The position numbers and the translations under genes are program-made. 64,000 bases of DNA, taken from Sporocytophaga sp. (GTDB lineage Bacteria; Bacteroidota; Bacteroidia; Cytophagales; Cytophagaceae). The notes under the pieces were generated by a model. It searched no databases and was not told where the DNA came from. It saw only the letters and a list, made by a program, of their open reading frames with translations. Where the stretch lies: the NCBI RefSeq assembly GCF_017745095.1, contig NZ_JAGHZZ010000007.1, positions 151,565 through 215,564 on the forward strand, given 5' to 3'. Shown in pieces: positions 17,444 to 61,739 of the stretch (the first letter of the stretch is position 1; every line of letters begins with the position of its first letter).

Positions 17444-17462
17444 TAAACTTAAAACTTATTAC

Positions 17463-32967: not shown

Positions 32968-32977
32968 CAATTCACAA

Positions 32978-35287: not shown

Positions 35288-35303
35288 TTTTAGTTTGATT
35301 GTT

Positions 35304-44663: not shown

Positions 44664-46991
44664 TTAGAAAAAAATCGTGAAAGTCGAGCCTTTACCTAAT
44701 TCACTTTCCACCTCAATATGCCCACCTGTGTTTTCAATCATTTTTTTCACAATATATAGTCCCACTCCAGTCCCCTCCACATGAGTATGCAAACGTTTAA
44801 ACATCTGGAACAATTTGCCTTGTTGCCGTTTATCCAATCCCAGACCGTTATCTTTAATAGAAAGTATTATATTGCCTTCTTCTAACCTTTCCGTTTTTAT
44901 ATTGATTACAGGGTCTCGTTCACTTCTATATTTAATAGCATTGCTCAGGAGATTATACATAATACTTCGTAGATTTTTTTTAGAAAAATGAATTGAAGCA
45001 ATCTGAATATCTTCTATAAAAGTTACTTTGTCCATTTTTATCTGCTCTCTGTAATCTTGCTTAAAATCATTTATAATAGTATTAAATGAAATATCTTCAG
45101 CAGCATCATGTACACCTCTTTGAATTCTGCTAATTTCCGTTAATTCTTCTATAGTAATTTTTAACCTTTCAATTGAAGTTTTTATCATCTCAATAAGCGA
45201 CTGCTGTTCTTCTGATTTAATATTTTTACTCCCTTCAAAAATAATATCCACCAATGCTTCCATATTAATGATAGGAGCTTTCAGATCATGAGAGGCTGTA
45301 TAAATAAAATTATCAAGATCATTGTTAATCCTAAGTAATTCAAAATTTTTCTTTTCAAGTTTTTTTTCATTTTCAATTCTTTCTGTAAGATCTATTCCCA
45401 TAATCACCACTCCCCTTACCTTATTTTCAAATATATCAGGAATAAAATTGAGGCTAATAGTCTTTGATAACTTGCTTTTTAATTCCAATTCAATTTCAGC
45501 AGAAGTTTCATTTCCAGATAATGATCCGTTCAACAATTCATGAAATATGTTATAAGTTTCTTCATCCATCCCATCCTGAATTGCTTTACCCTCAATACTA
45601 TCAGAGACATTTCTGATCTTCTTAAAGTTCTGATTGGCAAACTGACATACATTATCTTTATTGATATACGCTATCATTGCAGGTATTGCATTGGTTATAA
45701 GACTCAACTGGCTCTCTCTTTTTTTTAGCTCATAGGTTCTTTCCCTTATTTTTTCCTCCAGATTTTGATTCGCCGCTTTTAATTTATCCTGAATTTCTTT
45801 AAGCTCCGTTATATCTCTTGAAATCGAAAGGATATGGGTTACATTGCCTTCTGCATCCCTTTGAAAAGGGATTTCTCTCGAAGCTGTCCAATTCCATTTC
45901 CCGGTATTAGGGTCCTTCACACTAAATTCAAATGTAGTGATCTCATCATCTTTTAATTTTCTATATTTTTCATACCTGGCTTTTATTGCTGAATTTTCAT
46001 CCGGATGTAAAATGCCCCATTCCGTAAGCATATCAGCAGTCACTCCCAAATATTTTTCTGGCTCACGATTAATATAAACAACTTCTCCTGTATTCAAATC
46101 AACTATAAAAATGGAATCAGGTGTGGTCTCTGCAACCTTTTGACTGAACAATTGGCTCTCCTTTAATTCTTCCTCTACCTCCTTTCTATCTGTGATGTCC
46201 ATCACGATTCCTATAATCTGGCAAACATTTCCATTTTTATCTCTTCTGAAAACTTTTTCTCTTGAATAAAACCATCTATACTCCCCGTTTACATCCTTTA
46301 TTCTATAATCCAATGACCTTACTTCATCATCTTCTGCACTTTTAAAGCCATCAAAATAGTCTTCTATCAGCTGAACATCATCCGGGTGTATTAACTCTGA
46401 TACAATCGATTTCCCCATACTTTTCAATTGGTCGGAGCTATAGCCAAGGGATTCATTCAATTCTTTATTTGAATAGATATTCTTTTTTTCATTTATATCA
46501 TATACATACAATTTATTAGGACTAGCTTCAGCCAGATTTTGTATAAAGTGCTTATGTTTTTCCAAAGCTTTTACGTGATCATTCAGCCGGTCTTTTAAAC
46601 TACGAAATGAAAGATTATCTATAATAGTCAGAATTTTTGGTGCAAGCACATATAAGGCATAAATCACCCCTAATGAAGCAATTGAAGTAATGCCCCTGAC
46701 AATAAACTCAAGCCTATAAATTGGATTCCAAACAGTTAATACATCGATAAGATGACTAATTCCAGTCCCTGTAATAAAAAGAAAAATGAGCAGGACCCAC
46801 CAGTATCGTCTAAAATCTTTTCTCTTCCAAATAATATATCCTATAATGAAAGAGATAATAAAAAAAACGAGGGAAGTAATGGCGTCAGAAATAACATTGA
46901 TCCACATAGTGTCAAGTTTCCCTAAAATAAATTGAGTAATCCTCCCAAAAAGCAAACTTAATAAGGTCATCAACGATTGGGTATAAAACAA
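44664..46991 (-). CDS. Sensor histidine kinase: ethylene-receptor-like 3-TM domain, PAS/PAC domains, HisKA, HATPase
   Basis: ISD...F.I...G.SHL N-terminus; two PAC motifs; ASHDLKAP H-box; NLLSNAIKY, DNGLG, FQMF, GTGVGL boxes. Confidence 0.92.
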   Translation of the reverse strand: MFYTQSLMTLLSLLFGRITQFILGKLDTMWINVISDAITSLVFFIISFIIGYIIWKRKDFRRYWWVLLIFLFITGTGISHLIDVLTVWNPIYRLEFIVRGITSIASLGVIYALYVLAPKILTIIDNLSFRSLKDRLNDHVKALEKHKHFIQNLAEASPNKLYVYDINEKKNIYSNKELNESLGYSSDQLKSMGKSIVSELIHPDDVQLIEDYFDGFKSAEDDEVRSLDYRIKDVNGEYRWFYSREKVFRRDKNGNVCQIIGIVMDITDRKEVEEELKESQLFSQKVAETTPDSIFIVDLNTGEVVYINREPEKYLGVTADMLTEWGILHPDENSAIKARYEKYRKLKDDEITTFEFSVKDPNTGKWNWTASREIPFQRDAEGNVTHILSISRDITELKEIQDKLKAANQNLEEKIRERTYELKKRESQLSLITNAIPAMIAYINKDNVCQFANQNFKKIRNVSDSIEGKAIQDGMDEETYNIFHELLNGSLSGNETSAEIELELKSKLSKTISLNFIPDIFENKVRGVVIMGIDLTERIENEKKLEKKNFELLRINNDLDNFIYTASHDLKAPIINMEALVDIIFEGSKNIKSEEQQSLIEMIKTSIERLKITIEELTEISRIQRGVHDAAEDISFNTIINDFKQDYREQIKMDKVTFIEDIQIASIHFSKKNLRSIMYNLLSNAIKYRSERDPVINIKTERLEEGNIILSIKDNGLGLDKRQQGKLFQMFKRLHTHVEGTGVGLYIVKKMIENTGGHIEVESELGKGSTFTIFF

Positions 46992-47159: not shown

Positions 47160-47513
47160 TTAAGACTGGCCTATGGGCTGGTTTACAGACTTACTATCTT
47201 TAGACTGAATTGAATTCAGTACCTCCTGAGTTACATCTTTTCCTCCCGTGATATTGGTATATAAAGCACCTATGCTATAAATAGGTCCCCAGGGAATCCC
47301 CCACCATCCCAAAAGAAATGTTAGTAATGTAAACCCAATACCATGTTTCACAGTTGACTCTCCAGGTTTAATAAAATACACATCACTTGAGCGTCTAAAA
47401 GTCATTACAACAATCGAAATGCAATATTGAAACACAACGAATTTTCCTCCATTGTTTAATTCTCTTTCAATATCACTGCCAGATAGTCCTTGAATGTTTT
47501 TGATGTTGGCCAT
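47160..47513 (-). CDS. Conserved hypothetical membrane protein
   Basis: GGKFVVFQYCIS..MTF.RSS.VYFI and LLGWWGIPWGPIY motifs. Confidence 0.75.
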   Translation of the reverse strand: MANIKNIQGLSGSDIERELNNGGKFVVFQYCISIVVMTFRRSSDVYFIKPGESTVKHGIGFTLLTFLLGWWGIPWGPIYSIGALYTNITGGKDVTQEVLNSIQSKDSKSVNQPIGQS

Positions 47514-48115: not shown

Positions 48116-49495
48116 TTAATGACTAATAAGCGGTAAACCATTTTCTTCAGCATCAACACCCTGTCCATATTTTTCAACTATTTGGCTGAATGGTTTATTC
48201 GTGAATGCTACCTGGAAATACTCTGTTTCATACTCTCCATTGGAATGTTTCATGGCCTCATGTGCCTGATTCCATTTCTCATCAAAATCTTTGTTATGGC
48301 ACTTTCTAAGCTTTTTATAATTCTTATTTGCCATAGCCTTCATTGCCTCAGTGTCGCCAATCCTTCTTTCAGTAAAATGAGTAATAGCTTTGCCAATATC
48401 TCCACCAAATTCATCGATAAGATGAGCAAACACCCTAACACTTTCCATACAGGTATTCATACCCATAGCATAGAAAGGAGGCATAGCATGGGCCGCATCT
48501 CCTACCAGCAAGACCTGATCTTTAAAGTTCCAATTGGTGCATTTTATCTCAGAGATTTTAGATTCGGGATTGCTGTTGAACTCGGATATGAACTGCTCCT
48601 TATCAATAAATGAAAGGAACTGGCAGTTTTCCTGTACGAATTCAAACAACTTTTCATTATCCTTCAATTTATTTACTTCACAAGATTCTGTATAGAACAA
48701 AGTACCATTAAAGCCCTTCTTACCATCAGGCAGCGCAACGAACAATAGCTCGGCTATATTCCAAATGTGTACATAATTCGGATCCAATACATACTCACCG
48801 TTTCTCGGAGGTATATAAATCTCTTTGAATCTGTAGTCCAGAGTCGAAAGGGTTGCATCTACCAAACCCTGATCCACCAACCTTTGTCTAACACAAGAAA
48901 AAGTACCGTCGCAGCCAAATAAATATTCATATTTAACAACTCTTTCAGTGGTAGTATCTTGGCCCTCTATACTATAATTGGTATTTGTGATAAATGTAAT
49001 CTCCTTATCATCTACATTAATTCCTTCTAATTTATGTCCATAATAGAACTCTACATTACCTGTTTCCAAACAAGCGTCCATCAGGTAAAAATTAAAATGT
49101 TTTCTATTGACAGTATAAATGGCCTCTTTGTTAGCTCCATAATACTGAGGATATACCTGCCCGCTTCGTAAATGAACAGCACGTCCATATTTAGGCACCA
49201 GCAATGATTTGTAACTATCATACAAACCCAAATCTTTAAGAGTAGTAACTCCTCTTTCACTGATCGACATCCCTACTGTCCTTTTCTTAATTTCATTGTT
49301 ATTTATAAGGTTCATTCTTTTTTCATAAACCTGTACCTTATAACCCTTCTTCGCCAAATACAAAGCCAATGTACAACCACTAATGCCTGCACCAATAACT
49401 ACGACAGGCTTATTTTCTAAATAATCGATATTCGTTCCCACGCACTTAATTAATTTACTTATATATATAAGGCTAACAGGTGGACTGGCAGGCAC
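48116..49495 (-). CDS. FAD-dependent monooxygenase, divergent kynurenine 3-monooxygenase-like (start uncertain)
   Basis: VIGAGISG, RTVGMSISERG, GCDGTFSCVR, HIW, VGDAAHAMPPFYAMGMN align with KMO motifs RSINLALSxRG, GADGAFS, GDAAHAIVPFYGQGMN. Confidence 0.85.
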   Translation of the reverse strand: MPASPPVSLIYISKLIKCVGTNIDYLENKPVVVIGAGISGCTLALYLAKKGYKVQVYEKRMNLINNNEIKKRTVGMSISERGVTTLKDLGLYDSYKSLLVPKYGRAVHLRSGQVYPQYYGANKEAIYTVNRKHFNFYLMDACLETGNVEFYYGHKLEGINVDDKEITFITNTNYSIEGQDTTTERVVKYEYLFGCDGTFSCVRQRLVDQGLVDATLSTLDYRFKEIYIPPRNGEYVLDPNYVHIWNIAELLFVALPDGKKGFNGTLFYTESCEVNKLKDNEKLFEFVQENCQFLSFIDKEQFISEFNSNPESKISEIKCTNWNFKDQVLLVGDAAHAMPPFYAMGMNTCMESVRVFAHLIDEFGGDIGKAITHFTERRIGDTEAMKAMANKNYKKLRKCHNKDFDEKWNQAHEAMKHSNGEYETEYFQVAFTNKPFSQIVEKYGQGVDAEENGLPLISH

Positions 49496-49881
49496 TGTTT
49501 AAAAATTAAAAAAAAAACAAACTGGCAAGGGGAAAAATCATGAATATCCTGCAAAAATTAAATTTAAGATTTTGTCAAATTTTATTGCAAATATTGTTTT
49601 GAATAATAAACTGTCGATTACTGAGCGGTTAGCTCTAAAAATAGAATTAACTGAAATGAGTTTTGCAAACTTCATCTCTTATTGGTCGGTGTGTGCTAAA
49701 AAGTATAACCTAAATCTAATATGATTACTTTCTTTTTCATTGCGATATAATCATTTAGATTTAGGGAAGGATTCACAAGTCATTTCTCTACATGACTTCT
49801 GGAATAATTTTTTTTAAATTTTGAGTAAAACATCCGTTTATCATTTTTCTAGAATGAAGTTCTATTTATAGCTAAACTAAT

Positions 49882-51078
49882 TCAACTTGCAGATTTTAAA
49901 AATCCTTTTCTCTCCAATGCATTTTCAATGATAGATGAAAAATCCTCTGCTCTTTTTTGCCATGAATTACCAGATGCAAATTTTATTCTTGCCTCTTTCT
50001 TAATTTCATTATCGGTATTCAATTCTTCTCTTATAGCATTAAGAAAACTTTCCTTAGAAGAGACAAAATGAATAAAGGAATCGAACTCCGGAAGATCTGC
50101 AAAATTTGACGAAACCACCGGCTTACCTACTGCAAGGTATTCATTGAACTTTAATGGATAGACGCTCCTTGTATAATCATTTTTTAAATAAGGAACAATC
50201 CCCAGATCTATCCCTCCTATTATTACTGGGATTTCTTCAGGCTTTTTAGCGCCTAGCCATCTCGTATTTGAAAATTTAGATAAAATTCTAAAGGCATTTT
50301 CATCGGGTGTTCTTCCTGCAAAAAGAAATTCAACATCAGGTAAATTTTCTATCAAATACTTCATCGTTTCAATATCAAATCGATCGTCAATACTTCCTGT
50401 ATACCCTATCACTTTCCTTTTTGCATTCCTAACATTTGCTGCATGCATATTAAATCGATTGAAGTCAACTCCGTTCTTAATTAAATAGCATTCTTTGGTT
50501 TTACTACTCTTCGAATGAAACAGAATTTCTGAAGTGGTAATGACAACATCCGCTTTATTTATATAATCATTCTCGATCAGAATCCCATGATTGGAGTTCC
50601 ATCCTGTTGCTATTTCATCATAACAGTAATAGATATTTAATATTTCATCAAGCCGTCCTGCAAGCATTGTTCCATAATAAGGATTAAATCCTGAAACAAT
50701 AATCGGATCTTTGATTTTAAGTTGTTGAACTGCTCTTTTAATTTCACTTTCAACAATGCGAGCATTTACCCTTAATAGTTTTAAAAAAAGTGGATGAGAG
50801 GGTATCATATTGATGGGAAGCACTGGGGGAGGACTTAAGACATTAATAGTTGAACTAACCCTGGTTTTCACTTCTCGCAATCTTGGTTCAAATCCTAATA
50901 TCTTTTTAAAGGGAATAGCCTTAGGGCCCCTTAAAAAATCTTTAAAACTAAATGCATAGTCTACATGCAGTACTTTATTTTCTGAACTTAAAACAGTCAT
51001 GATTTCTGCCATAGTATTTGTGAAATTACTTTCCCACATATTGTTTCCAAGGCAGATTATATTTTGATCTTTTAGCAT
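49882..51078 (-). CDS. GT-B glycosyltransferase (GT4/TuaH-like); start reassigned to MLKDQ
   Basis: IYYCYD, TS..L, IKNGVDF, GY.G.ID.RFD, PLKFNEYLA.GKPVVS. Confidence 0.88.
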   Translation of the reverse strand: MLKDQNIICLGNNMWESNFTNTMAEIMTVLSSENKVLHVDYAFSFKDFLRGPKAIPFKKILGFEPRLREVKTRVSSTINVLSPPPVLPINMIPSHPLFLKLLRVNARIVESEIKRAVQQLKIKDPIIVSGFNPYYGTMLAGRLDEILNIYYCYDEIATGWNSNHGILIENDYINKADVVITTSEILFHSKSSKTKECYLIKNGVDFNRFNMHAANVRNAKRKVIGYTGSIDDRFDIETMKYLIENLPDVEFLFAGRTPDENAFRILSKFSNTRWLGAKKPEEIPVIIGGIDLGIVPYLKNDYTRSVYPLKFNEYLAVGKPVVSSNFADLPEFDSFIHFVSSKESFLNAIREELNTDNEIKKEARIKFASGNSWQKRAEDFSSIIENALERKGFLKSAS

Positions 51079-51771
51079 TTTTATAGATTTATAAAATATC
51101 AACTGTGATGTGATATTTAAGTTAGGACAAGACTATTTAAGGCTTTTGCTTTGTTTGTCTCACTCACTAAAGTTCATACATAGATAAAAACTCATTATAT
51201 AAAGCTTGCACTCATCGATAATAACTCCCTTGTAATCATTTCCTCCCTAGGACTTTTAATCACTCTACCCCAATCCTATCATTTACCACACAGTTTAATT
51301 TAATTTTACAAATGGGATATAATGATCCATTAAACCAATACCGGAGAATAATATTGCTTCTGATAAATAAAATACACTGAAATACTCTATCTCATTTATC
51401 TATAATATTATTTACTATTATACTAGAAAGAGACCGATGGCGGAGAATAAATCAATTATTTCTTCCTTGAACATTGGTAAAAAAACTTCCCCTTACTCTT
51501 ATAAATTTACCCTATGTAAAAAATTTTTGCTTACAAATATTTGCTGACATTCTAAAATGTTATGGATTTAACATTTTGTAAAATTTTATATTACTTACTA
51601 AAAAAATAATAAATGGCTTTATAAAACTTTAATTAATCTAAAGATCTACCAACAGTCAATAAAGACGGGTTTAATATGATTTTAATAACAAAGAAAATCT
51701 ATAGTACGTTTCTTTAATATCAAGCTTTTAAAAGATCACAAAATTAGTAAATTAAATTTAGTAAAAACACT

Positions 51772-54700
51772 ATGGAAAGTGAAGTAAGAGTATTAAGACA
51801 AAATGTAAGGTTACAAAAAAATAGTTTAGATAAACTCAAAGAAAAACTATCGCATCTCAACGAAAACAAATTTTCCTCATTTATACTATCACTAAGTGCA
51901 TTTATTGCTTTGGCAAAAAGATATACAGATCAAGATAAATTCTTAGTATCATATAATAACTCAATACACCCCAATGGAAATGTATTGAACAAATCAAATC
52001 AAAGGATCTCCTATATAGAAATAGATCTTTCAGAAGATCCTACTTTTGAAATTTTAATTCAACAATTGAATGATAAAATTCAAAAAGATACAGAGAGAAC
52101 AATAGCAGATAAAAAGGACTCTTATCCATTTGTTGTTAATTTTTCCTTTGATGATATACTTGAAGATGGTAGTTCCAATCTTAATTTAAATTTACAAAGG
52201 ACAGACAATCAAAATACCTTACCAGTTCTTTCAATTAATTTATCTAATTCCGAAGAGGATGTCATGTGTGGTTGCCTTGAAGCAAGACTAGACTTGATGG
52301 AAATTTCTATCTCTGAAAATAGTAATGAACACTATTGCAATATTTTAAGAGAAGCGATAATAAATCCTCAAAAGAGAATCTCCGAATGTAATATGTTGGA
52401 TGAAGCTGAAAGAAATAAAATTCTTTTTGAATGGAATGCAACTGAAAAAAATTACCGCAATAATATATGTTTACATCATTTAATAGAAGAACAGGTAGAT
52501 AAAACTCCTGATTCAACAGCCGTCATTTACAACGGTCATTCACTAACTTATAAGGAATTAAATAGAAGAGCTAACATTGTAGCGGCACGTTTAATTAATA
52601 GAGGAATAAAAGAAGAAGACCTTGTTGCTGTATTGTTTGAATTATCATTAGAATCTGTCGTAGCTATAATAGGAGTTTTAAAAGCTGGTGCTGTTTATGT
52701 TCCACTTGACACCAACTATCCTGTTAAGAGAATACAATTACTAGTGGACGATTCCAAACCAAAATTATTAATTACCAATTCAAGTTTAAAAGGTTTATTA
52801 GAGTTTCCAGAAGAGAAAAAACTTATAATAAGTGATAATGATTGGCTAAATAATGATTATTTAGCTAATCCGAAAACGGGTGTTAAACCTGAAAACGCGG
52901 CATATGTAATGTACACCTCCGGTTCTACGGGATCTCCTAAGGGAATTGTAATACAACATAATAGTGTTGTGAATAACATAATGTTGATAAAGGATCGATA
53001 CATGCTTACCCCAGAAGATACTGTTCCTTCTATGCCTTCATTAGCATTTGATGCTTCAGTTTCCAAGTTATTCCCGATATTAACTATAGGTGGAACAGTT
53101 GTACTTCCAACAGAAGAAGAAATAAGAGACGTAGAAAAAACGCTTGAATTAATCAATAAATACAATATGCCTTATTTTTCTACACCTCCAAGCATATTAA
53201 GAGTCATTAATTCAATTAATCCTGATTTATCGAAACTACGCAGTATATCTTGTGGAGGTGAAGCGTTGAAATTTTCAGATGTTAGTAATCTTAATAAACA
53301 CGTCCCTATAATTAACATATATGGGCCTACCGAAGCAACCGTTTCTTCCTGCACTTATACAATACCGAAAAACTCCAGCCCTATTACTTCTCGCATCCCA
53401 ATAGGAAAACCCAACCCTAACTGCAAGGTGTATATATTAGATAAACATTTAAATTGTATGCCCGTCAATTGCTATGGAACAATATATATTGGAGGAATTG
53501 GCGTAGCACGTGGTTATTTAAACAATCCGGAGTTAACAACACAAAGATTTATTAAAAGCCCTTTTGTAGAGGGAGAAGTATTGTACAATACTGGAGACAT
53601 TGGCAGGTGGCTACCAGATGGGAATATCGATTTCATTGGTAGAAATGATAATCAGATAAAGATAAGAGGTTTCAGGATTCAGATAGAGGAGGTTGAAAAG
53701 ATATTAATAAAGCACCCATCTGTTAACGAAGGTAAAATCATTGTTAAAGGCACAAGTAATGAAGATAAATTCATGGTCGCCTGTGTAATTCCAAAAGAGG
53801 GAGAAAGTTTGTCAATAGAATCGATGAGAGACTTTATTGAAAAATATTTACCTGATTATATGGTTCCTTCCGACCTTATACTTCTTGACCATTTTCCCCT
53901 TAATCAGAATAACAAGGTAGACTCAAAAGCTCTACTTCAAAAATATGACGAAAAAAAACCTATTCAACAACAAAAGGTATCTATCAGCAAGAATAGCATT
54001 GAGAAAGAACTCGTTATCTTTTGGAAAGAGATCCTGAATAAGGAAATCAATATTCAGGAAAATTTTTTCCACGCAGGAGGACATTCGCTTCATGCCATGC
54101 AACTGAAAATGTATATCAATAAGAAATTCAATACAGATTTTTCGATGAAAGACATTTTCAATAATCTTACAATTGAAAAATTAACTTCTTTAATAGCATC
54201 AAAAGCTCAAGTAAATGAAGATAATATTAATATATCAAATAGCCACCAAAACAAGAATCCTTTTATTGCTGAAAAACAAAGTATAGAAAATATAACTCCT
54301 ATCGAAGTATCAAACATAAGAACCCAAACTTTGGATACTTCAATAAATAAAAATGAGATAGGTTTAATTACCTCAAAAGATAAAGAAAGTAGCTTATATC
54401 AGTTGTTCTTCAAAAAACCAACATTATTTGACCTGTCATTTAACGAAAGAAGATTATGGTTTCTCTACCAATTTCTTCCTAATAAAGCTACTTACAATGT
54501 AGTTAAAGCCTATAATTTGTCAGGCAAATTGAATACAGGTGTATTAGAAAAAAGTGTAAAACAACTACTGGATAAGCATTTAAATTTAAGAAAAAACTTT
54601 ATTGAAGTAGATGGAGAACCTAAAGCTAAATTAAATTATAAAGCGACCTTTAAAGTAAGAGTATGCTGTTTATCTGATTTTTTAAAATCAACTTCTGACG

Positions 54701-55014
54701 ATGAAGAAACAATTATCCAAAAATTAATAGATGACGAAACTGAAAAGGCATTTGATCTAAGTAAAGATCTTCCTATTCGTTTAACTGTGATCAAAAAAGG
54801 GAAAGAAAGTAGTATTCTGATTATTTCTGCTCATCATATTATTTCTGATGCCTGGTCATTCGCTATCATATTAGAAGAACTGAATAAGCTTTATAATTCC
54901 AACCTCATCGACGAAGAAATAAATCTTGAGGATTTGACAAGAGAATATAACAGCTACGTTGGGGCGCAGAAACAACATCTAAATAAGAATAAGGTTATTG
55001 GAGAAATAAGCTAA
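51772..55014 (+). CDS. NRPS, 5' part: C-lobe remnant - A - T - N-lobe of a condensation domain
   Basis: YTSGSTGSPKG, FDAS, YGPTE, TGD, GRNDNQIKIRGFRI, GGHSL, HHIISDAWS. Confidence 0.92.
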   Translation: MESEVRVLRQNVRLQKNSLDKLKEKLSHLNENKFSSFILSLSAFIALAKRYTDQDKFLVSYNNSIHPNGNVLNKSNQRISYIEIDLSEDPTFEILIQQLNDKIQKDTERTIADKKDSYPFVVNFSFDDILEDGSSNLNLNLQRTDNQNTLPVLSINLSNSEEDVMCGCLEARLDLMEISISENSNEHYCNILREAIINPQKRISECNMLDEAERNKILFEWNATEKNYRNNICLHHLIEEQVDKTPDSTAVIYNGHSLTYKELNRRANIVAARLINRGIKEEDLVAVLFELSLESVVAIIGVLKAGAVYVPLDTNYPVKRIQLLVDDSKPKLLITNSSLKGLLEFPEEKKLIISDNDWLNNDYLANPKTGVKPENAAYVMYTSGSTGSPKGIVIQHNSVVNNIMLIKDRYMLTPEDTVPSMPSLAFDASVSKLFPILTIGGTVVLPTEEEIRDVEKTLELINKYNMPYFSTPPSILRVINSINPDLSKLRSISCGGEALKFSDVSNLNKHVPIINIYGPTEATVSSCTYTIPKNSSPITSRIPIGKPNPNCKVYILDKHLNCMPVNCYGTIYIGGIGVARGYLNNPELTTQRFIKSPFVEGEVLYNTGDIGRWLPDGNIDFIGRNDNQIKIRGFRIQIEEVEKILIKHPSVNEGKIIVKGTSNEDKFMVACVIPKEGESLSIESMRDFIEKYLPDYMVPSDLILLDHFPLNQNNKVDSKALLQKYDEKKPIQQQKVSISKNSIEKELVIFWKEILNKEINIQENFFHAGGHSLHAMQLKMYINKKFNTDFSMKDIFNNLTIEKLTSLIASKAQVNEDNINISNSHQNKNPFIAEKQSIENITPIEVSNIRTQTLDTSINKNEIGLITSKDKESSLYQLFFKKPTLFDLSFNERRLWFLYQFLPNKATYNVVKAYNLSGKLNTGVLEKSVKQLLDKHLNLRKNFIEVDGEPKAKLNYKATFKVRVCCLSDFLKSTSDDEETIIQKLIDDETEKAFDLSKDLPIRLTVIKKGKESSILIISAHHIISDAWSFAIILEELNKLYNSNLIDEEINLEDLTREYNSYVGAQKQHLNKNKVIGEIS

Positions 55015-58000
55015 GTGATAAAATTTCCAAATTAAAATTACCATATGAGCGTACTGGAAAAGATATCATTTCAGATAGCGCCTTATATGAAGAAATTTTA
55101 ATACCTAATACCATAATCAATTCACTAAAAAAATTTAGTAAAGAAAAAGATGTTACGTTCTTTATGACCTTCTTTAGTGCATTCCAATCCCTACTATATA
55201 AATATAGCCAAAACGAATTTATAAATACTGCAATTCCAATTGTAGATCGGGCTGATGCAGCAACAAAAAGACTAATTGGTTTTTTTGTAAACACTTTAAT
55301 TGTTCCCACTGATTTTTCCAAAGATGTTGCATTTGATGAATTGATAGAAGAAGTTAAACAAACATTATTAGAAGCTTTTCATCATCAAGATCTGCCATAT
55401 GAAATTCTTGCTAATGAATTAAGAAAGGAAACAGGAGCTGATGTAAATTCACTCATTCAAGTAATGTTTGCTTTTCAAAATGTACATGAAGATCCATTGC
55501 ATTTAACAGGAGTTAAAGCAGAGAATATTTTATTGAAAAATAAACATGCTAAGTTCGATCTTACAGTTTCTGTTTCCGAACAAGCAGAAGGTTATCTGGT
55601 ATCTGCAGAGTATAAATCTGATCTATTCCATTCTATTACAATAAAAAGAATGTTGAATTCATTCCATATGCTCTTAGAACAAGTAATGTCAAACCCTAAA
55701 ATCAAGTTATCTCAGATTGAAGTATTGAATCAATCGGTGAAAGAAGTCCTTACAAAAGTATGGAATGACACAAAAAGAAATCTTCCTGATTTTTCAGTAC
55801 ATGAATTATTTGAAAGACAAGTGTTCTCATCCCCGGATGCAATTGCACTAAATTGGAATGGCAAAAAAATCAGTTATAATGAATTAAATATTCGATCTAA
55901 TCATTTAGCACATTATCTTAAAAAACAAGGAATCTCTTCTGAAGAACTGGTAGGTATATTAATGGATGAATCGGAGTTTAGTATAATATCTCTGATTGCT
56001 GTTTTAAAGACAGGAGGTGCATACCTTCCTCTCGACCCTGCCTATCCAAAAGAAAGAATTGCTTATATGTTAAATGATTCAAAGGTTAAAACAATTATCA
56101 GTGAGAAAAAATATCTTGACTATCTTCCAGATTCTTCTTACCAATGGATTGTTTTGGATCAACTTGGTGAAGAATTAAGTAAAGAAAAAGATACCAATCC
56201 TGAAAGTAGAATACTTACCAATCATCTGGCCTATGTAATGTATACATCCGGTTCCACTGGTAATCCAAAAGGAGTTGGAGTAGAACATAAGAACATCATA
56301 AGGCTGGTGAAAAACACCAACTATGTTACATTAACAAGCAGCACTAAGCTATTAAAAACAGGCGCCTTTTCATTTGATGCATCAACATTTGAGGTATGGG
56401 GAATTTTATTGAACGGTGGTGAATTATTTGTATATCCAAAAGAAAATTTATTAGACCATCAATTGCTGAAAGAAAAGATAAAAGAGAATGGAATTTCTTT
56501 GATGTGGTTTACAGTATCCTGGTTTAATCAATTAGTAGATATAGATGTAGACATTTTTAAGCCTCTTCAATCAGTATTTGTTGGAGGCGATAAATTATCA
56601 GTGAAGCATATTAATAAAGTTAAACAAGCAATTCCTCACCTTGAAATAGTCAATGGATATGGGCCTACTGAAAACACAACTTTTTCTCTATATCATAAAA
56701 TAGAGCATACAAGTGAAGAAGACATTCCTATTGGTAAGCCAATCACGAATACCACCGTTTATATTTTGGACAAATCTCTTAATCTTCTTCCAATTGGAGT
56801 GCAAGGTGAAATTTATGTAGGAGGGAAAGGAGTTGCAAGAGGGTATATAAACGATGAAAAACGTACGCAAGAAAAATTCATTCCTGATCCATTTAGTTTT
56901 GAAGGAAGATTGTATAAGACCGGAGACCTTGGAAGATGGCTGGAAAATGGAACGATAGAATTTGGAGGAAGAAAAGACAATCAAATTAAACTTAGGGGAT
57001 ATAGAATAGAACTGGGAGAAATTGAAAATGCTATATCTAGCCATCCTCTGATAGAAGATTCTGTAGTGATTTTAAAAGATGACAATGGTGATAAAAAGAT
57101 TATAGGGTTTTATTTAAGCAATACGAATTTAACGGAAGCTGATGTAAAAACTTTTCTTAGAAAGACTCTTCCTGATTTTATGATACCTGTCTACCTGATC
57201 AAAAAGGAAAGCTTTCCATTAACTTCTAACGGAAAAATTAATCGTCAGGCATTAGCAAATAGTACTAAGAATTATATTAATGCAAACAAAACATTTGAGT
57301 TTGCCTTTAATGCAACAGAGGAAAAACTTGTGGCGATCTTTGAAGAGATTTTAGGAAGAGACGCTATCAGCATTACTGATAATTTCTTTGAATTAGGTGG
57401 ACATTCTCTTCTCGCTACAAAAGTAATGGCCAAAATTGAAAGGGAGTTTGGACAAAATTATCCATTGTCCATATTATTTGAAGCTCCTACTATTAAAGAG
57501 CTCAGTAAGGTTATAAAAGGAGATTCTGGAATTAAAAAAACAGGAATTATTCCTATACAACCTAAAGGAAATAAACCTCCGTTATTCTTATTGCCAGGAT
57601 ATTTATTCTATCATAATCTAGCAAAATATCTCGGAGAGGATCAGCCACTGTATGGATTTGAGCCATTAAATATAGACAGAACAGAAGAAGTTGCGGCTAT
57701 GTTTATAAAGCAAATGAAACAGATTCAGCCAACAGGCCCTTATTTCATTGGTGGATTTTGTGCCAGTGGAATCATCGCGTACGAAGTAGCTCAACAACTC
57801 ACTGCCGCAGGAGATGAGATTGGTCTGTTATCTTTATTTGAAGTTTATACTCCAGAAGCCACGGTTTCTAAGGCATCAAAGAAATATTTATCAGACAAGT
57901 TTGCTCATTGGAAGGCCGCATTCTCTTATAATTCTTTCAGAGCTAAGATAAAATTGATTTATAATGAATCTCAGAAACTCCTTCAATATTTCCTTCTTAA

Positions 58001-58265
58001 TCAATTTAGAAGTATGATAAGTGATTACAAGCTCAAACCATATGATGGAAAGATTGTATTGTTCAAAGCTTTAGATGAACTGGTAAGCTCATCTTCATCT
58101 GACCCTTACATGGGTTGGAATAGATACTGTTCAGCTCATAATATAACTTTGATTAAAATTCCAGGAAATCATAATACATTATTTAAAGAACCTTATATTG
58201 GTATTACTGCTGCGCAAATTAAAAAGTGTTTGGAAAATCAAAATTATCATGTTGAAGAAATTTGA
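54993..58265 (+). CDS. NRPS, 3' part (frame open from 54993; first ATG 55164): rest of C - A(Val-like) - T - TE
   Basis: YWRNKL..LKLPYER C-domain motif upstream of the called ATG; YTSGSTGNPKG, GGHSL, TE GGFCASG and GNH. Confidence 0.92.
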   Translation, partial: GYWRNKLSDKISKLKLPYERTGKDIISDSALYEEILIPNTIINSLKKFSKEKDVTFFMTFFSAFQSLLYKYSQNEFINTAIPIVDRADAATKRLIGFFVNTLIVPTDFSKDVAFDELIEEVKQTLLEAFHHQDLPYEILANELRKETGADVNSLIQVMFAFQNVHEDPLHLTGVKAENILLKNKHAKFDLTVSVSEQAEGYLVSAEYKSDLFHSITIKRMLNSFHMLLEQVMSNPKIKLSQIEVLNQSVKEVLTKVWNDTKRNLPDFSVHELFERQVFSSPDAIALNWNGKKISYNELNIRSNHLAHYLKKQGISSEELVGILMDESEFSIISLIAVLKTGGAYLPLDPAYPKERIAYMLNDSKVKTIISEKKYLDYLPDSSYQWIVLDQLGEELSKEKDTNPESRILTNHLAYVMYTSGSTGNPKGVGVEHKNIIRLVKNTNYVTLTSSTKLLKTGAFSFDASTFEVWGILLNGGELFVYPKENLLDHQLLKEKIKENGISLMWFTVSWFNQLVDIDVDIFKPLQSVFVGGDKLSVKHINKVKQAIPHLEIVNGYGPTENTTFSLYHKIEHTSEEDIPIGKPITNTTVYILDKSLNLLPIGVQGEIYVGGKGVARGYINDEKRTQEKFIPDPFSFEGRLYKTGDLGRWLENGTIEFGGRKDNQIKLRGYRIELGEIENAISSHPLIEDSVVILKDDNGDKKIIGFYLSNTNLTEADVKTFLRKTLPDFMIPVYLIKKESFPLTSNGKINRQALANSTKNYINANKTFEFAFNATEEKLVAIFEEILGRDAISITDNFFELGGHSLLATKVMAKIEREFGQNYPLSILFEAPTIKELSKVIKGDSGIKKTGIIPIQPKGNKPPLFLLPGYLFYHNLAKYLGEDQPLYGFEPLNIDRTEEVAAMFIKQMKQIQPTGPYFIGGFCASGIIAYEVAQQLTAAGDEIGLLSLFEVYTPEATVSKASKKYLSDKFAHWKAAFSYNSFRAKIKLIYNESQKLLQYFLLNQFRSMISDYKLKPYDGKIVLFKALDELVSSSSSDPYMGWNRYCSAHNITLIKIPGNHNTLFKEPYIGITAAQIKKCLENQNYHVEEI

Positions 58266-58394
58266 TTAAAATTTGATTGAAACAAGTTTAAGAAAGAGAG
58301 TTGTATTTGAATGAATGTTTGATTTAAATAACACTCTCTTTCTTTTATTATCTCTAATCCGAAGATTATACTCATTCCTTTACTTATTATTTCA

Positions 58395-59027
58395 ATGGAA
58401 ATATTTTATACTAAGTTCGAGGACAAACTGGATCATAAGAAATTGATTGCATACATAAGAACTCTTCCCCTTTCAATGAGAAAAGATATTTTTAAATTTA
58501 AAATGCCACTTGATATTCAAGGGCACCTATTTGGAAAAATTTTATTAAAAAAAATATTTGAAAATTATTACAATACTGAAAATATATTAAATCAGTTGGA
58601 ATATAATAAATATGGCCGTCCATACATTTCCAATTCAACCATAAATTTTAGCATTTCTCATTCTGAGCAATTTTCAGCAGTTGCAGTATCAAATGGGTTT
58701 CCGATAGGGATAGACATTGAAAAAATGAAAGAGATATCTTTCTGCGATTTTAAAACTTTATTTACAGAAAGTGAATGGAATGTAATTTTAACATCAGCCA
58801 ATCCTTTAAAAACATTTTATGTTTATTGGACCAAGAAAGAAAGTACAGCAAAGGCAGATGGAAGAGGTCTTTCCATTCCTTTAAATGAAATTTTAATTGA
58901 AGATGCTATTTCAATTTTAAATAAAAAACGGTGGCACTTATTTGAAATTAATTTAGAGCCTGACTATATGATTCATATTGCAAGTGAACAACAAGAATTG
59001 ATCAATATCCATAGGTTTACTTTTTAG
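58395..59027 (+). CDS. Sfp-type 4'-phosphopantetheinyl transferase
   Basis: YGRP, FSISHS, IGIDIE, FYVYWTKKES..KADGRG. Confidence 0.92.
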   Translation: MEIFYTKFEDKLDHKKLIAYIRTLPLSMRKDIFKFKMPLDIQGHLFGKILLKKIFENYYNTENILNQLEYNKYGRPYISNSTINFSISHSEQFSAVAVSNGFPIGIDIEKMKEISFCDFKTLFTESEWNVILTSANPLKTFYVYWTKKESTAKADGRGLSIPLNEILIEDAISILNKKRWHLFEINLEPDYMIHIASEQQELINIHRFTF

Positions 59028-59222: not shown

Positions 59223-60263
59223 TTAATTCTGAATTCTAAAACTTTCCTTCCATACTTTACCGCTTATGTCTTCTACCTCTATCCAATACCCGCCTTCTTT
59301 TGAGACGGTAATTGGAAGAGTTACTTTGGCTTTGGCTCCTAATGGAATGATCAAACTGTTTTTGCCTTTCTTCACTTTGGCAATGTAATAATTCTCAATG
59401 TCCCCATCAGGTATTTTGGAAAGCTCACTATACGAATACTCTTCTAATAATTCACCATTTTCATCTTTTAAAGAAATTCGTGTGATAAATGCACCATACG
59501 TATCAATACCCTGATCTCTGAACAGATCGAATCTAAGCCCTTTGACTTTGTCATACTTTGTTTCTGAAATTACAATATTAGGCTTCATAGATAGGTTATG
59601 AAGTTTTCCCCATACTCCTCCATGAAAGACTTGATTGGTATACAAAGTTATTATTAAAGAAAACATTGCGATGAATAAAGAAATGTATGTAAATATTCTA
59701 TTGCTAATGTTTATGTCACCAGACCCCATATATTTAAACCATTTTTTTTCTTTTAGTTTAGTAAGCCTTGAAAGCAAGAGTCTGTCTAAGGAAAACTTAT
59801 CTGCGCCAGCTACTATCATAATGAGTCCAGCTATGATACCAAAAGCCCCGATCTGCCATTCATCCAGGCACGTTGTTCCAAGCCATCCAGCACCAAACAA
59901 TATTCCAAAAGAGAGGAGAAACACTCCTAATGCTGAGGCTCGAGTAAATATCCCAAACAATAGCCCTAATCCAACCAGAGCTTCAATGATCGTAAATACG
60001 ATGAGGAATATCTGAAGGAAATCTGGATGAGTGATCATAAAATGAATCATAGGTTTAACGAATATAGCATTGGGGAAGAAGTGGTTAAACTTCTCACCAA
60101 CATAGCCGATTCCATCAGGATCTAATTTATTTTCCAGAATCAACCTTCTCCAGAATGCAGAGAAGAAGAGCCAGCCTGTAACCCATCTTAATCCCGTTAG
60201 CAAAACTGCTGAGGAGGACAATTGGTATTGAGAATTTTTATCTGAAATTTTAATTGTTTCCAT
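59223..60263 (-). CDS. doxD: Thiosulfate:quinone oxidoreductase, DoxD domain fused to DoxA-like domain
   Basis: LRWVTGWLFFSAFWRR..L..KL.P...GY.GEKFN.F.P; GWLG.TCLDEWQI; C-terminal GIDTYGAF...PLGAKA DoxA-like region. Confidence 0.85.
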   Translation of the reverse strand: METIKISDKNSQYQLSSSAVLLTGLRWVTGWLFFSAFWRRLILENKLDPDGIGYVGEKFNHFFPNAIFVKPMIHFMITHPDFLQIFLIVFTIIEALVGLGLLFGIFTRASALGVFLLSFGILFGAGWLGTTCLDEWQIGAFGIIAGLIMIVAGADKFSLDRLLLSRLTKLKEKKWFKYMGSGDINISNRIFTYISLFIAMFSLIITLYTNQVFHGGVWGKLHNLSMKPNIVISETKYDKVKGLRFDLFRDQGIDTYGAFITRISLKDENGELLEEYSYSELSKIPDGDIENYYIAKVKKGKNSLIIPLGAKAKVTLPITVSKEGGYWIEVEDISGKVWKESFRIQN

Positions 60264-60318
60264 TTCCGTTTTTCTTTTTAAGTGAAGGAATAATAAATAA
60301 GAATCGCATTTAATTTAA

Positions 60319-61665: not shown

Positions 61666-61739
61666 AAAAATCCCCACCTGTTATACAAGTGAGGATTTTA
61701 AATCGGAATGTGAACCCGCTGGGATTCGAACCCAGGACC
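61666..61739 (-). repeat. attL-like copy: tRNA-Lys 3' end, spacer and terminator
   Basis: See 59081-59152; the stem has a U:G pair on the minus strand, consistent with terminating tRNA transcription. Confidence 0.88.

What the first reader, a model, noticed from the sequence alone, without database searches (positions are those of the whole stretch)
48116..59027. Compact self-sufficient NRPS cluster of unfamiliar composition
Seen: KMO-like flavin monooxygenase and GT-B glycosyltransferase divergent from a two-module NRPS (C-lobe remnant-A-T-C-A-T-TE, about 2160 aa if fused) followed by its own Sfp PPTase; visibly AT-rich. I do not recognise a characterised cluster with this gene set. Inference: a small hydroxylated, possibly glycosylated X-Val dipeptide-derived metabolite.
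Basis: partly seen in the sequence, partly recalled or inferred. Interest (0 to 1): 0.75.

Follow-up and report, generated by a model that had tools for sequence, protein, structure and literature searches.

The report
Kynurenine-hydroxylase-coupled two-module NRPS cluster, broken here
This is an orphan secondary-metabolite cluster of a Sporocytophaga-like soil bacterium that pairs a rare, dedicated kynurenine 3-monooxygenase with a two-module peptide synthetase, which probably joins 3-hydroxykynurenine to valine, and in this strain a 16-base deletion cuts the synthetase gene.

Summary
At 48116-59027 lie a kynurenine 3-monooxygenase (KMO), a GT4 glycosyltransferase, a two-module NRPS and an Sfp-type PPTase. 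The stretch has the lowest GC in the window (31.9% against 36.2%). The NRPS split is a 16-nt deletion between AGGT repeats inside the condensation domain. Five related assemblies (84-90% nt identity) carry all four genes with one intact ORF of 2166-2174 aa.

The conserved core is KMO plus NRPS, not all four genes. The KMO forms a single 50%-identity cluster among 1.84 billion representative proteins. Wherever enough contig is available it lies head-to-head with an orthologous NRPS; one case has KMO next to a PPTase instead. The GT occurs only in the Sporocytophaga group, and its nearest paralogues sit in Wzx/Wzy polysaccharide loci.

The KMO keeps all four L-kynurenine carboxylate contacts, and its model matches only KMO structures at the top. 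The A2 code is a valine code. The A1 code (DASSSGIVSK) is an unassigned alpha-amino-acid code with a roomy, hydroxyl-lined pocket.

Best reading: KMO makes 3-hydroxy-L-kynurenine, and the NRPS makes a 3-hydroxykynurenine-Val product that the Cys thioesterase releases. I found no described cluster that matches. It is an orphan member of a known kind, of moderate interest.

The parts
48116..49495 (-). Kynurenine 3-monooxygenase (KMO), 459 aa from a GTG start; the true start may lie about 25 codons further in. It belongs to a rare subfamily linked to NRPS genes, marked by the motif PFYAMGMN.
   Evidence: Pfam FAD_binding_3. The best PDB relatives are all KMOs, at E 3e-59. The AlphaFold model (pLDDT 79.5) has KMO structures as its top 35 Foldseek hits, with TM up to 0.89. 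The L-Kyn carboxylate contacts R105, Y119, N391 and Y426 are conserved.
49882..51102 (-). GT4 (GT-B fold) glycosyltransferase, TuaH-like. Gene callers give 398 aa. It lies between KMO and the NRPS only in the Sporocytophaga group.
   Evidence: Pfam Glyco_trans_1_4. NCBIfam TuaH at 1.4e-30, below the family cut-off. Orthologues at 82-90% identity occur only in Sporocytophaga-like contigs. Paralogues at 47-50% identity sit inside Wzx/Wzy EPS loci.
51103..51771 (.). A 669-bp AT-rich divergent intergenic region between the GT/KMO arm and the NRPS arm. It presumably holds the promoters.
   Evidence: Sequence read. There was no Rfam hit. The promoter scan was no better than shuffled sequence.
51772..52485 (+). 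N-terminal remnant of a condensation domain. Only the C-terminal lobe is present, and there is no HHxxxDG motif.
   Evidence: Residues 88-221 align to positions 328-453 of the internal C domain. They also align to the last ~85 residues of the Txo1/Txo2 C domains, and to C-domain ends directly upstream of A domains in dozens of NRPS loci. It is the least conserved part of the protein: 22-25% identity to distant orthologues, against 37-58% for the other domains.
52486..55014 (+). A1 (code DASSSGIVSK), T1 (GGHSL at 54076-54090) and the N-terminal lobe of the C domain (HHIISDAWS at 54832-54858). The ORF ends at a premature stop after the frameshift.
   Evidence: Pfam AMP-binding, PP-binding and Condensation profile positions 7-190. 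Code extraction. Motif coordinates.
54988..54995 (+). Site of a 16-nt deletion (junction 54991/54992, ambiguous by 4 nt because of AGGT direct repeats). It shifts the frame inside the C domain.
   Evidence: Three-frame translations. Alignment with L001, L002, L122, L123 and L124, which all keep the 16 nt and encode ...K(V/I)NELLGYW....
55164..58265 (+). Rest of the NRPS; this frame is open from about 54988. It holds the C-terminal lobe of the C domain, A2 (code DAFWFGGTFK, Val), T2 (GGHSL at 57396-57410) and the TE. The TE has a Cys nucleophile (GGFCASG at 57750-57770, Cys codon 57759-57761), Glu at acid position I (LFEVYTP at 57834-57854) and His (GNHNT at 58164-58178).
   Evidence: Pfam. Codes. 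TE alignments to AB3403 (GWCFGG) and to the serine TEs of NocB, Pks13 and 7CRN. Conservation in all orthologues. Coordinates.
58395..59027 (+). Sfp-type 4'-phosphopantetheinyl transferase, 210 aa.
   Evidence: Pfam ACPS plus AASDHPPT_N. Weak NCBIfam matches to AusB and HetI. It is conserved downstream of the NRPS in the five relatives.

Best explanation
This is an orphan NRPS cluster whose conserved core is a dedicated KMO plus a two-module synthetase.

Inferred pathway:
1. The KMO hydroxylates free L-kynurenine, which comes from the cell's own tryptophan breakdown, to 3-hydroxy-L-kynurenine.
2. Module 1 (a vestigial C-lobe, then A1-T1) loads this amino acid, or kynurenine itself.
3. An LCL-type C domain joins it to L-valine, which module 2 has loaded.
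4. A thioesterase with a cysteine nucleophile releases the dipeptidyl chain. The most likely product is a diketopiperazine or a linear dipeptide. The more reactive thioester intermediate might instead allow attack by the weak aryl-amine or phenol nucleophile of the kynurenine ring.

The Sfp-type PPTase primes both carrier domains. In the Sporocytophaga lineage a GT4 paralogue borrowed from polysaccharide synthesis has been inserted and may or may not glycosylate the product.

In the sequenced strain a 16-nt deletion inside the C domain splits the synthetase, so no dipeptide should be made here.

Shown: gene content, domain order, the lesion, conservation and co-occurrence, KMO family membership, the Val-type code, and the Cys nucleophile position.
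Inferred: the A1 substrate, the order of hydroxylation and loading, the mode of release, and the product.
For: KMO identity:
- PDB sequence hits are all KMOs.
- The top 35 fold hits are all KMO structures.
- The four residues that bind the L-Kyn carboxylate in PfKMO (R84, Y98, N369, Y404; PMC6376250) are invariant in the clade. This argues for a free amino-acid substrate.

Dedicated enzyme, not housekeeping:
- The clade is one 50%-identity cluster in 1.84e9 representatives, with a drop from 738 to 412 bits to the next hit.
- It comprises 12 clusters at 90% identity among 5.8e9 clusters.
- It occurs in 5 of 185,579 species genomes.

Linkage:
- KMO and an orthologous NRPS are adjacent in two different genomic neighbourhoods: the Sporocytophaga group, and the OH_PBB/OH_SFB-type MAGs and metagenome contigs L083-85, L087, L088 and L094.
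- KMO+PPTase are adjacent in L086.
- The next-nearest KMO-like genes (36-40% identity) also sit in NRPS contexts.

A1:
- D235 and K517 are present, as expected for an alpha-amino acid.
- The pocket is lined by S/S/S/G, so it is large and hydroxyl-rich. This pattern, D[ATV]S[SP][ST]G[IV]VSK, is conserved in all orthologues.
- It resembles the published Kyn code DAWTTTGVGK in its small hydroxylated residues at positions 278/299.

A2: the code equals a published Val code.

C domain: best solved match is the LCL domain of TycC, and the His motif is present.

Cys-TE: conserved in every orthologue. Published Cys-TEs release through weak nucleophiles or form strained rings (PMC11792885, PMC11298585).

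Precedents:
- The fungal A-T-C-A-T synthetase AacA makes an L-Kyn-containing diketopiperazine (PMC11942691).
- The kynurenine pathway exists in the related Cytophaga hutchinsonii.

Lesion.
Against: - No A-domain assay or product exists.
- The A1 code matches the known Kyn code at only 4 of 10 positions, and three of those are near-universal.
- I could not check whether the genome encodes tryptophan 2,3-dioxygenase and kynurenine formamidase. None is in the 64-kb window.
- The NRPS next to a more distant KMO-like gene (L106) has no A domain with an A1-like code, so 'KMO-like next to NRPS' does not always predict this code.
- L086 shows the KMO without an NRPS within 6-10 kb.
- The deletion is not confirmed by reads. 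The only near-identical public run has a coverage gap exactly over the site.
Confidence: 0.5

Rival explanations
1. The KMO-like enzyme is a tailoring hydroxylase. It acts on a carrier-bound aromatic residue or on the released X-Val peptide. The degenerate N-terminal C-lobe serves as its docking platform, by analogy with recruitment domains in other NRPSs. X would then be an ordinary aromatic or large amino acid.
For: - KMO-like genes at 36-40% identity sit inside larger NRPS operons whose A-domain codes differ from A1.
- The N-terminal C-lobe remnant is retained in every orthologue.
- The nearest canonical codes to A1 are of the aromatic (Tyr) type; this comparison is from memory.
Against: - All four residues that clamp the free alpha-carboxylate of L-kynurenine are invariant. 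In an N-terminal residue of a peptide or thioester that carboxylate does not exist.
- The C-lobe remnant is the fastest-evolving part of the protein: 22-25% identity against 37-58% elsewhere. That fits a structural vestige better than a specific docking surface.
Confidence: 0.2
2. The KMO is simply the organism's housekeeping enzyme of the tryptophan-to-NAD pathway, and its position next to the NRPS is incidental. The NRPS would make an unrelated X-Val dipeptide or diketopiperazine.
For: - Cytophaga hutchinsonii, a relative, has a kynurenine pathway with a soluble KMO.
- The substrate-binding residues are those of a true KMO.
Against: - The clade is extremely rare and was not found in C. hutchinsonii by the clade-specific patterns.
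- The adjacency is kept in two unrelated genomic neighbourhoods.
- No other kynurenine- or NAD-pathway gene lies nearby.
- One instance pairs the KMO with a PPTase.
Confidence: 0.08
3. The 16-nt gap is an assembly or consensus artefact, and the NRPS of this strain is really intact.
For: No read-level confirmation exists. Contigs of the only 99%-identical public run break on both sides of the site.
Against: - A clean 16-nt loss between 4-nt direct repeats is the typical footprint of replication slippage. It is not a homopolymer-type sequencing error.
- The surrounding sequence is otherwise colinear with five relatives.
Confidence: 0.15

Closest known systems
Aspkyncin pathway of Aspergillus aculeatus (AacA; PMC11942691)
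   Same: It uses a minimal two-module NRPS that condenses L-kynurenine with a small aliphatic amino acid to give a dipeptide-derived diketopiperazine. Some homologous clusters carry a kynurenine-pathway enzyme (IDO).
   Different: It is fungal. Its order is A-T-C-A-T with no release domain. It uses unhydroxylated kynurenine and N-methyl-alanine, has no KMO, and shares no detectable orthology. Here there is a KMO, a C-lobe remnant, a Cys thioesterase and a Val module.
Kynurenine-incorporating module of daptomycin/taromycin (DptD, with the tryptophan dioxygenase DptJ)
   Same: A bacterial NRPS A domain activates a kynurenine-type alpha-amino acid that a cluster-encoded tryptophan-pathway enzyme supplies. 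The pocket is lined with small hydroxylated residues (code DAWTTTGVGK).
   Different: Kyn is the C-terminal residue of a 13-residue lipopeptide. The supplied enzyme is a dioxygenase, not KMO. Only 4 of 10 code positions are shared.
Actinomycin and pyrrolobenzodiazepine (anthramycin/sibiromycin-type) clusters
   Same: These are NRPS clusters that draw on 3-hydroxykynurenine made from tryptophan. That the pyrrolobenzodiazepine clusters encode their own KMO is from my own knowledge and was not checked here.
   Different: In those pathways 3-hydroxykynurenine is cleaved by kynureninase to a 3-hydroxyanthranilate starter, which an aryl-acid A domain loads. Here no kynureninase or methyltransferase is present, and A1 keeps Asp235, the mark of an alpha-amino-acid substrate.
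Aureusimine AusA/AusB
   Same: It pairs a two-module NRPS that has a Val module with its own Sfp-type PPTase. AusA and AusB are among the best NCBIfam matches for the NRPS and the PPTase.
   Different: AusA ends in a reductase domain and gives pyrazinones. All scores are far below the family cut-offs (1160 against 2500 bits; 76 against 225 bits).
Cysteine thioesterases (ObiF, SulM, BulbE, polymyxin TE, AB3403)
   Same: The nucleophile position holds Cys instead of Ser. The best solved sequence match of the TE is the Cys-TE of AB3403.
   Different: The Gln-Cys-Asn motif of SulM is absent; here the sequence is F/Y-C-A. The acid at position I is Glu. There is no beta-hydroxy or beta-amino C-terminal residue that could form a beta-lactone or beta-lactam. 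ObiF and SulM TEs were not among the sequence hits.

Membership tests
Kynurenine 3-monooxygenase (class A flavoprotein monooxygenase) | Overall sequence and fold of KMO, including the C-terminal helical domain | tested here: met
   Ten KMO sequences top the PDB search at E 3e-59 to 1e-41, and the next family stands at 3e-09. The model has pLDDT 79.5. Foldseek hits 1-35 are all KMO with TM 0.72-0.89, and the next family is 8-10 orders of magnitude weaker in E-value.
Kynurenine 3-monooxygenase (class A flavoprotein monooxygenase) | Residues that contact the L-kynurenine carboxylate (PfKMO R84, Y98, N369, Y404) | tested here: met
   They correspond to window residues R105, Y119, N391 and Y426, and are invariant in the 12-sequence clade alignment. 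The residue list comes from PMC6376250.
Kynurenine 3-monooxygenase (class A flavoprotein monooxygenase) | NADPH-dependent 3-hydroxylation of free L-kynurenine | not testable with these tools
   This needs an enzyme assay.
Kynurenine 3-monooxygenase (class A flavoprotein monooxygenase) | Genomic company of other kynurenine/NAD-pathway genes (housekeeping role) | tested here: not met
   None is present in the window or in any related locus. The neighbours are NRPS or PPTase genes.
Type I modular NRPS | A-domain core motifs, carrier-domain serine (GGHSL), C-domain HHxxxD motif, terminal thioesterase | tested here: met
   Pfam hits. Motifs located. The His motif is HHIISDAWS here (Gly replaced by Ala) and HHIVADGWS in distant orthologues.
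Type I modular NRPS | One uninterrupted reading frame, giving a functional C domain | tested here: not met
   The window carries a 16-nt deletion and a frameshift inside the C domain. The frame is intact in five relatives.
Sfp-type phosphopantetheinyl transferase | Two-lobed ACPS fold (N-terminal AASDHPPT_N plus ACPS domain), about 210-240 aa | tested here: met
   PF22624 and PF01648 both score above their cut-offs.
Natural-product glycosyltransferase acting on the NRPS product | Co-occurrence with the core genes wherever they occur, and relatives in other secondary-metabolite clusters | tested here: not met
   It is absent from all six KMO+NRPS loci outside the Sporocytophaga group. Its nearest paralogues lie in Wzx/Wzy EPS loci.
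Beta-lactone/beta-lactam-forming Cys thioesterases (ObiF/SulM type) | Cysteine nucleophile | tested here: met
   GG(F/Y)CASG aligns to GWCFGG of AB3403 and to GWS(L/F)G of the serine TEs. It is conserved in all orthologues.
Beta-lactone/beta-lactam-forming Cys thioesterases (ObiF/SulM type) | Catalytic Asp moved to the loop after strand beta-7 (position II) | tested here: inconclusive
   Position I holds a conserved Glu (LFE.YTP). A conserved Asp also follows the predicted beta-7 strand (LFKAxD). The TE model was too poor to decide, with pLDDT 42.
Beta-lactone/beta-lactam-forming Cys thioesterases (ObiF/SulM type) | Gln-Cys-Asn motif (SulM) and a C-terminal residue with a beta-hydroxyl or beta-amino group | tested here: not met
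   The motif here is F/Y-C-A, and module 2 has a Val code. The criteria come from PMC11298585.
Any characterised biosynthetic gene cluster (MIBiG) | Gene-for-gene match to a cluster with a known product | not testable with these tools
   MIBiG, antiSMASH and BiG-FAM are not available here. Full-text searches gave no match. No named close homologue turned up in the protein searches.

The most novel reading that the evidence does not exclude
The KMO+NRPS pair is the first assembly line that takes ring-hydroxylated 3-hydroxy-L-kynurenine directly as an amino-acid building block. Its conserved cysteine thioesterase uses the weakly nucleophilic aryl amine or phenol of that residue, within one chain or between two chains, to release a new heterocyclic or macrocyclic, redox-active and UV-absorbing scaffold. 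In Sporocytophaga a recruited GT4 enzyme then glycosylates it.
Probability: 0.15. Interest if true: 0.6.

Novelty: new member of a known kind. Interest (0 to 1): 0.4.

Why it matters
Few Bacteroidota natural products are linked to their genes. This cluster gives a small target of two to four genes that is easy to clone. Intact copies are available in close relatives, and there is a specific, testable prediction: a 3-hydroxykynurenine-valine product.

If the prediction holds, it would add 3-hydroxykynurenine to the list of NRPS building blocks. I found no report of its direct incorporation. It would also add a very simple case to the small set of cysteine thioesterases, whose chemistry is of current interest for biocatalysis.

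For this particular strain the practical message is that the cluster is probably dead, so metabolite screening should use a relative.

Tried and rejected
- **Reads over the deletion.** The only near-identical public run (X1) has contig breaks on both sides of the site. A 90-95% identical run (X3) carries the undeleted form. There is therefore no confirmation either way.
- **RNA elements.** No Rfam family matched in 44-64 kb except one tRNA-Lys.
- **Promoters and terminators.** The consensus scans did no better than shuffled sequence.
- **TE structure.** The single-sequence AlphaFold model had pLDDT 42, so I did not use it for a fold search or for triad geometry.
- **NRPS-side homologue searches.** The genome scan with the second NRPS half found only the two close relatives plus generic NRPSs at 41% identity or less. 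It missed the L083-type orthologues because its patterns were window-specific. The protein search with module 1 was swamped by generic A domains, and its listed hits were all under about 1420 aa. Co-occurrence was therefore established from the KMO side.
- **Does an A1-like code follow KMO-like genes in other NRPSs?** It does not in L106, whose codes are DVWHISLVDK, DLFNNALTYK, DGAIAASVKK and DAMHVGGVTK.
- **Kynurenine-pathway genes in the window.** None was found among about 40 ORFs scanned. I could not search the rest of the genome.
- **Halogenase or N-hydroxylase reading of the flavoenzyme.** Rejected. All the top hits are KMOs, a halogenase (PltA) appears only at E 1.7e-05, and no lysine/ornithine N-hydroxylase appears among the matches.
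- **Aryl-acid (3-hydroxyanthranilate) starter.** Rejected as the less likely option, because A1 keeps Asp235 and no kynureninase is present.

Full report
**What is there**

- On the minus strand lies a 459-aa flavoprotein (48116-49495). Upstream of it on that strand is a 398-406-aa glycosyltransferase (49882-51102).
- A 669-bp AT-rich spacer separates these from the plus-strand genes.
- On the plus strand two ORFs of 1080 and 1033 aa (51772-55014 and 55164-58265) together read C-lobe remnant-A-T-C-A-T-TE.
- A 210-aa Sfp-type phosphopantetheinyl transferase follows (58395-59027) (Pfam; NCBIfam).

The stretch has 31.9% GC against 36.2% for the rest of the window. It is the lowest-GC stretch of its length in the window.

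The organism is a low-GC member of the Cytophagales close to Sporocytophaga.
- The nearest genomes are a Sporocytophaga sp. MAG and the 'Bacteroidetes bacterium OH_CBlB_80' MAG, at 84-86% nucleotide identity over the cluster.
- A Sporocytophaga myxococcoides protein is 84% identical to the GT.

**The break in the NRPS**

Three-frame translation shows the first ORF running into a stop just after ...QKQHLNKNK. The next frame then continues with GYWRNKLSDKISKLKLPYE..., the normal continuation of a condensation domain.

I aligned the site with five related assemblies: L001, L002, L122, L123 and L124.
- All five encode one uninterrupted NRPS of 2166-2174 aa.
- The window lacks 16 nucleotides that all five retain.
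- The missing stretch lies between two AGGT repeats, which is the usual footprint of replication slippage.

I found no other lesion. The deletion falls between the two lobes of the only functional C domain, so this strain should not be able to make the dipeptide.

I could not confirm the deletion from reads. The single near-identical public run has a coverage gap over the site, and a more distant run carries the undeleted form.

**The flavoenzyme is a true KMO of a rare, NRPS-linked kind**

Family membership rests on three lines of evidence.
- Its best solved relatives are all kynurenine 3-monooxygenases (human, rat, yeast, Pseudomonas) at E 3e-59 to 1e-41. The next family (tetracycline destructases) stands at 3e-09.
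- A model built from a 12-sequence alignment (pLDDT 79.5, pTM 0.82) has KMO structures as its top 35 Foldseek matches, with TM-scores up to 0.89. The match includes the C-terminal helical domain.
- The four residues that hold the carboxylate of L-kynurenine in the Pseudomonas enzyme are Arg84, Tyr98, Asn369 and Tyr404 (PMC6376250). They correspond to R105, Y119, N391 and Y426 here and are invariant across the clade. This points to a free amino-acid substrate, not a peptide or a thioester.

The enzyme is nevertheless not the common bacterial KMO.
- In an exhaustive HMMER search of 1.84 billion representative proteins, the whole clade collapses into one 50%-identity cluster. The score drops from 738 to 412 bits at the next hit.
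- The word-indexed search found only 12 clusters above 50% identity among 5.8 billion.
- Only 5 of 185,579 species genomes carry it.
- Clade-specific patterns did not pick up Cytophaga hutchinsonii, a relative known to have the kynurenine pathway.

**What travels together**

All four genes co-occur only within the Sporocytophaga group, at six loci counting the window.

Outside that group the KMO orthologues are 51-60% identical to the window's KMO, and they appear as follows.
- Three MAGs (OH_PBB_18, OH_SFB_18, OH_PBB_231) and three metagenome contigs carry the KMO head-to-head with a 2131-2146-aa NRPS.
  - That NRPS has the same domain order, and its domains are 37-58% identical to those of the window NRPS.
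  - These loci sit in a different neighbourhood (aconitase, a T9SS-tailed protein, TamB) and have neither GT nor PPTase.
- One contig (L086) has the KMO next to a PPTase, with no NRPS within 6-10 kb.
- The next-nearest KMO-like genes (36-40% identity) also lie in NRPS settings.
  - One lies between two large NRPS genes in a Cyclobacteriaceae MAG.
  - Others lie beside a type II thioesterase, a racemase and a TauD enzyme.
  - One lies beside a PPTase in Aquimarina spongiae.
- The relatives at 30-34% identity, in Ignavibacteria, Krumholzibacteria and others, mostly have no NRPS neighbour. The exception is the truncated hit L119 (Thiomargarita), which does.

The conserved functional unit is therefore KMO+NRPS.

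**The glycosyltransferase**

It belongs to GT4 and is TuaH-like. Orthologues at 82-90% identity exist only in Sporocytophaga-like contigs.

The next relatives, at 47-50% identity, include a paralogue in S. myxococcoides. They sit inside classical Wzx/Wzy polysaccharide loci, with an initiating transferase, a flippase, a Wzy polymerase and GT2 enzymes.

The copy here is thus a lone paralogue that landed between KMO and the NRPS in one lineage and has stayed there. Whether it acts on the peptide is open. I put this at roughly one in three.

**The synthetase**

*N-terminal remnant.* The first 238 residues are the C-terminal lobe of a condensation domain without the catalytic HHxxxDG lobe.
- They align to positions 328-453 of the internal C domain.
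- They align to the ends of the Txo1/Txo2 C domains.
- They align to C-domain ends just upstream of A domains in many loci.

This is the least conserved part of the protein (22-25% identity against 37-58% to distant orthologues). I read it as a structural vestige.

*A-domain codes.* I extracted Stachelhaus codes by aligning to GrsA-PheA.
- A2 gives DAFWFGGTFK in the window, and DAFWLGGTFK or DALWMGGTFK in orthologues. DAFWLGGTFK is a published Val code.
- A1 gives DASSSGIVSK, with the pattern D[ATV]S[SP][ST]G[IV]VSK across all orthologues.
  - It keeps Asp235 and Lys517, as expected for an alpha-amino acid.
  - It has small, hydroxylated residues where Phe- or Trp-activating domains have bulky ones.
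  - The published kynurenine code DAWTTTGVGK shares the Thr/Ser-lined character but only 4 of 10 positions. The assignment to (3-hydroxy)kynurenine therefore rests mainly on the gene linkage.

*C domain.* The internal C domain matches the LCL domain of TycC best. Its His motif is HHIISDAWS in the Sporocytophaga group and HHIVADGWS elsewhere. There is no epimerisation, methylation or reductase domain.

**The thioesterase**

- GG(F/Y)CASG aligns with GWCFGG of the Acinetobacter AB3403 TE, which is the best solved match.
- It also aligns with GWS(L/F)G of the serine TEs NocB, Pks13 and 7CRN.
- The cysteine is conserved in every orthologue, as are a Glu at the usual acid position and the His.

Cysteine TEs are uncommon. 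Characterised cases form strained rings (ObiF beta-lactone, SulM beta-lactam) or use weak nucleophiles (BulbE indole N-acylation). Changing Cys to Ser narrows the range of nucleophiles accepted (PMC11298585, PMC11792885).

The SulM-specific Gln-Cys-Asn motif is absent, and the last residue is Val. A beta-lactam or beta-lactone is therefore not expected.

A kynurenine residue does offer an aryl amine and, after hydroxylation, a phenol. Release through one of these is conceivable but unproven. The default outcome for a dipeptidyl thioester is a diketopiperazine or hydrolysis.

**Most likely mechanism and its rivals**

Main reading (confidence about 0.5):
1. KMO converts free L-kynurenine to 3-hydroxy-L-kynurenine.
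2. A1 loads it.
3. The C domain couples it to Val.
4. The Cys-TE releases a 3-hydroxykynurenine-Val product.
5. The PPTase primes the carriers.

Rivals:
- The KMO-like enzyme is a tailoring hydroxylase on a tethered or released substrate (0.2). The conserved carboxylate clamp argues against this.
- The KMO is a housekeeping NAD-pathway enzyme that is adjacent by accident (0.08). Rarity, conserved adjacency in two neighbourhoods and the PPTase pairing argue against this.
- Separately, the deletion could be an assembly artefact (0.15).

**Comparison with what is known**

- The closest functional analogue is the fungal aspkyncin synthetase AacA. It is an A-T-C-A-T enzyme that makes an L-Kyn/N-Me-Ala diketopiperazine (PMC11942691).
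- Bacterial precedents for kynurenine in NRPS products are daptomycin and taromycin.
- 3-Hydroxykynurenine feeds the actinomycin pathway, but only after cleavage to a 3-hydroxyanthranilate unit. I recall the same for the pyrrolobenzodiazepine pathways, but I did not check that here.
- I found no report of 3-hydroxykynurenine being incorporated directly.
- AusA/AusB are the best-named NCBIfam neighbours, but they score far below the family cut-offs and end in a reductase domain.
- I could not run MIBiG or antiSMASH.

**Verdict**

This is a real, orphan, compact NRPS cluster: a new member of a known kind. It has two features worth a specialist's attention, a dedicated and very rare KMO and a conserved cysteine thioesterase. 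In this strain it is probably inactivated. Interest is moderate (0.4).

Noticed in passing
window 44664-46991 (-): A 775-aa histidine kinase has an ethylene-receptor-like N-terminal domain (ETR1_N, E 4e-20), followed by PAS domains, HisKA and HATPase. It sits just beyond the KMO in the window and in all five Sporocytophaga-group relatives. It could be a regulator of the cluster or simply a syntenic neighbour.
   Followed up: partly
window 47160-47513 (-); L002 3995-4348; L124 11684-12037: A 117-aa ORF with no family match encodes two hydrophobic stretches (…LLGWWGIPWGPIYS…). It changes place between relatives. It lies between KMO and the kinase in the window, L122 and L123, between GT and KMO in L002 and L124, and is absent from L001.
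   Followed up: partly
window 59223-60780 (-): A fused DoxD-DoxA protein (subunits of the thiosulfate:quinone oxidoreductase type in one 346-aa ORF) lies next to a DsrE-like protein, directly downstream of the PPTase. In L002 and L122-L124 this neighbourhood differs, and no DoxDA homologue was detected in L001 or L002.
   Followed up: no
window 61710-61783 (-): A tRNA-Lys (anticodon TTT) lies 2.7 kb beyond the cluster. It is the only RNA-family hit in 44-64 kb.
   Followed up: no
window 13674-16016 and 30950-37157: There are four large sulfatase genes, three of them in a row. Next to them (26042-30814) lies a 1590-aa protein with fn3 and purple-acid-phosphatase-N-like repeats, and just upstream of that (25394-26026) a small ORF with a T9SS sorting tail.
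   Followed up: no
window 1035-4262 (+): A 1075-aa protein is made largely of WD40 beta-propeller repeats.
   Followed up: no
window 16184-17918 (-): A chromate transporter (ChrA) and a ChrB C-terminal-domain gene form a pair. A copper/heavy-metal P-type ATPase lies at 6546-8759.
   Followed up: no
L106 416-19834 (Cyclobacteriaceae MAG); L090/L092; L103 (Aquimarina spongiae): KMO-like genes at 36-40% identity are embedded in other Bacteroidota NRPS clusters. One lies between two NRPS genes of 3171 and 2823 aa. Others lie next to a type II thioesterase, an Asp/Glu racemase, TauD, a beta-lactamase-ABC fusion and a penicillin amidase. One lies next to a PPTase. Together they suggest a wider, unstudied family of NRPS-associated KMO-like hydroxylases.
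   Followed up: partly
protein P0025 (metagenome, 713 aa): A single polypeptide fuses a canonical KMO (N-terminal) with a tryptophan 2,3-dioxygenase domain (C-terminal, containing ASGFQSAQFR).
   Followed up: no
L083 636-1112 and L085 529-1008: A GyrI-like small-molecule-binding protein lies just downstream of the NRPS in two of the distant KMO+NRPS loci, transcribed toward it. It might be a self-protection gene. It is not present in the other loci.
   Followed up: no
window 54832-54858 and the orthologues: The catalytic motif of the C domain reads HHIISDAWS in all Sporocytophaga-group copies, with Ala in place of the usual Gly of HHxxxDG. The distant orthologues keep the Gly (HHIVADGWS, or HHIISDGWS in L094).
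   Followed up: partly
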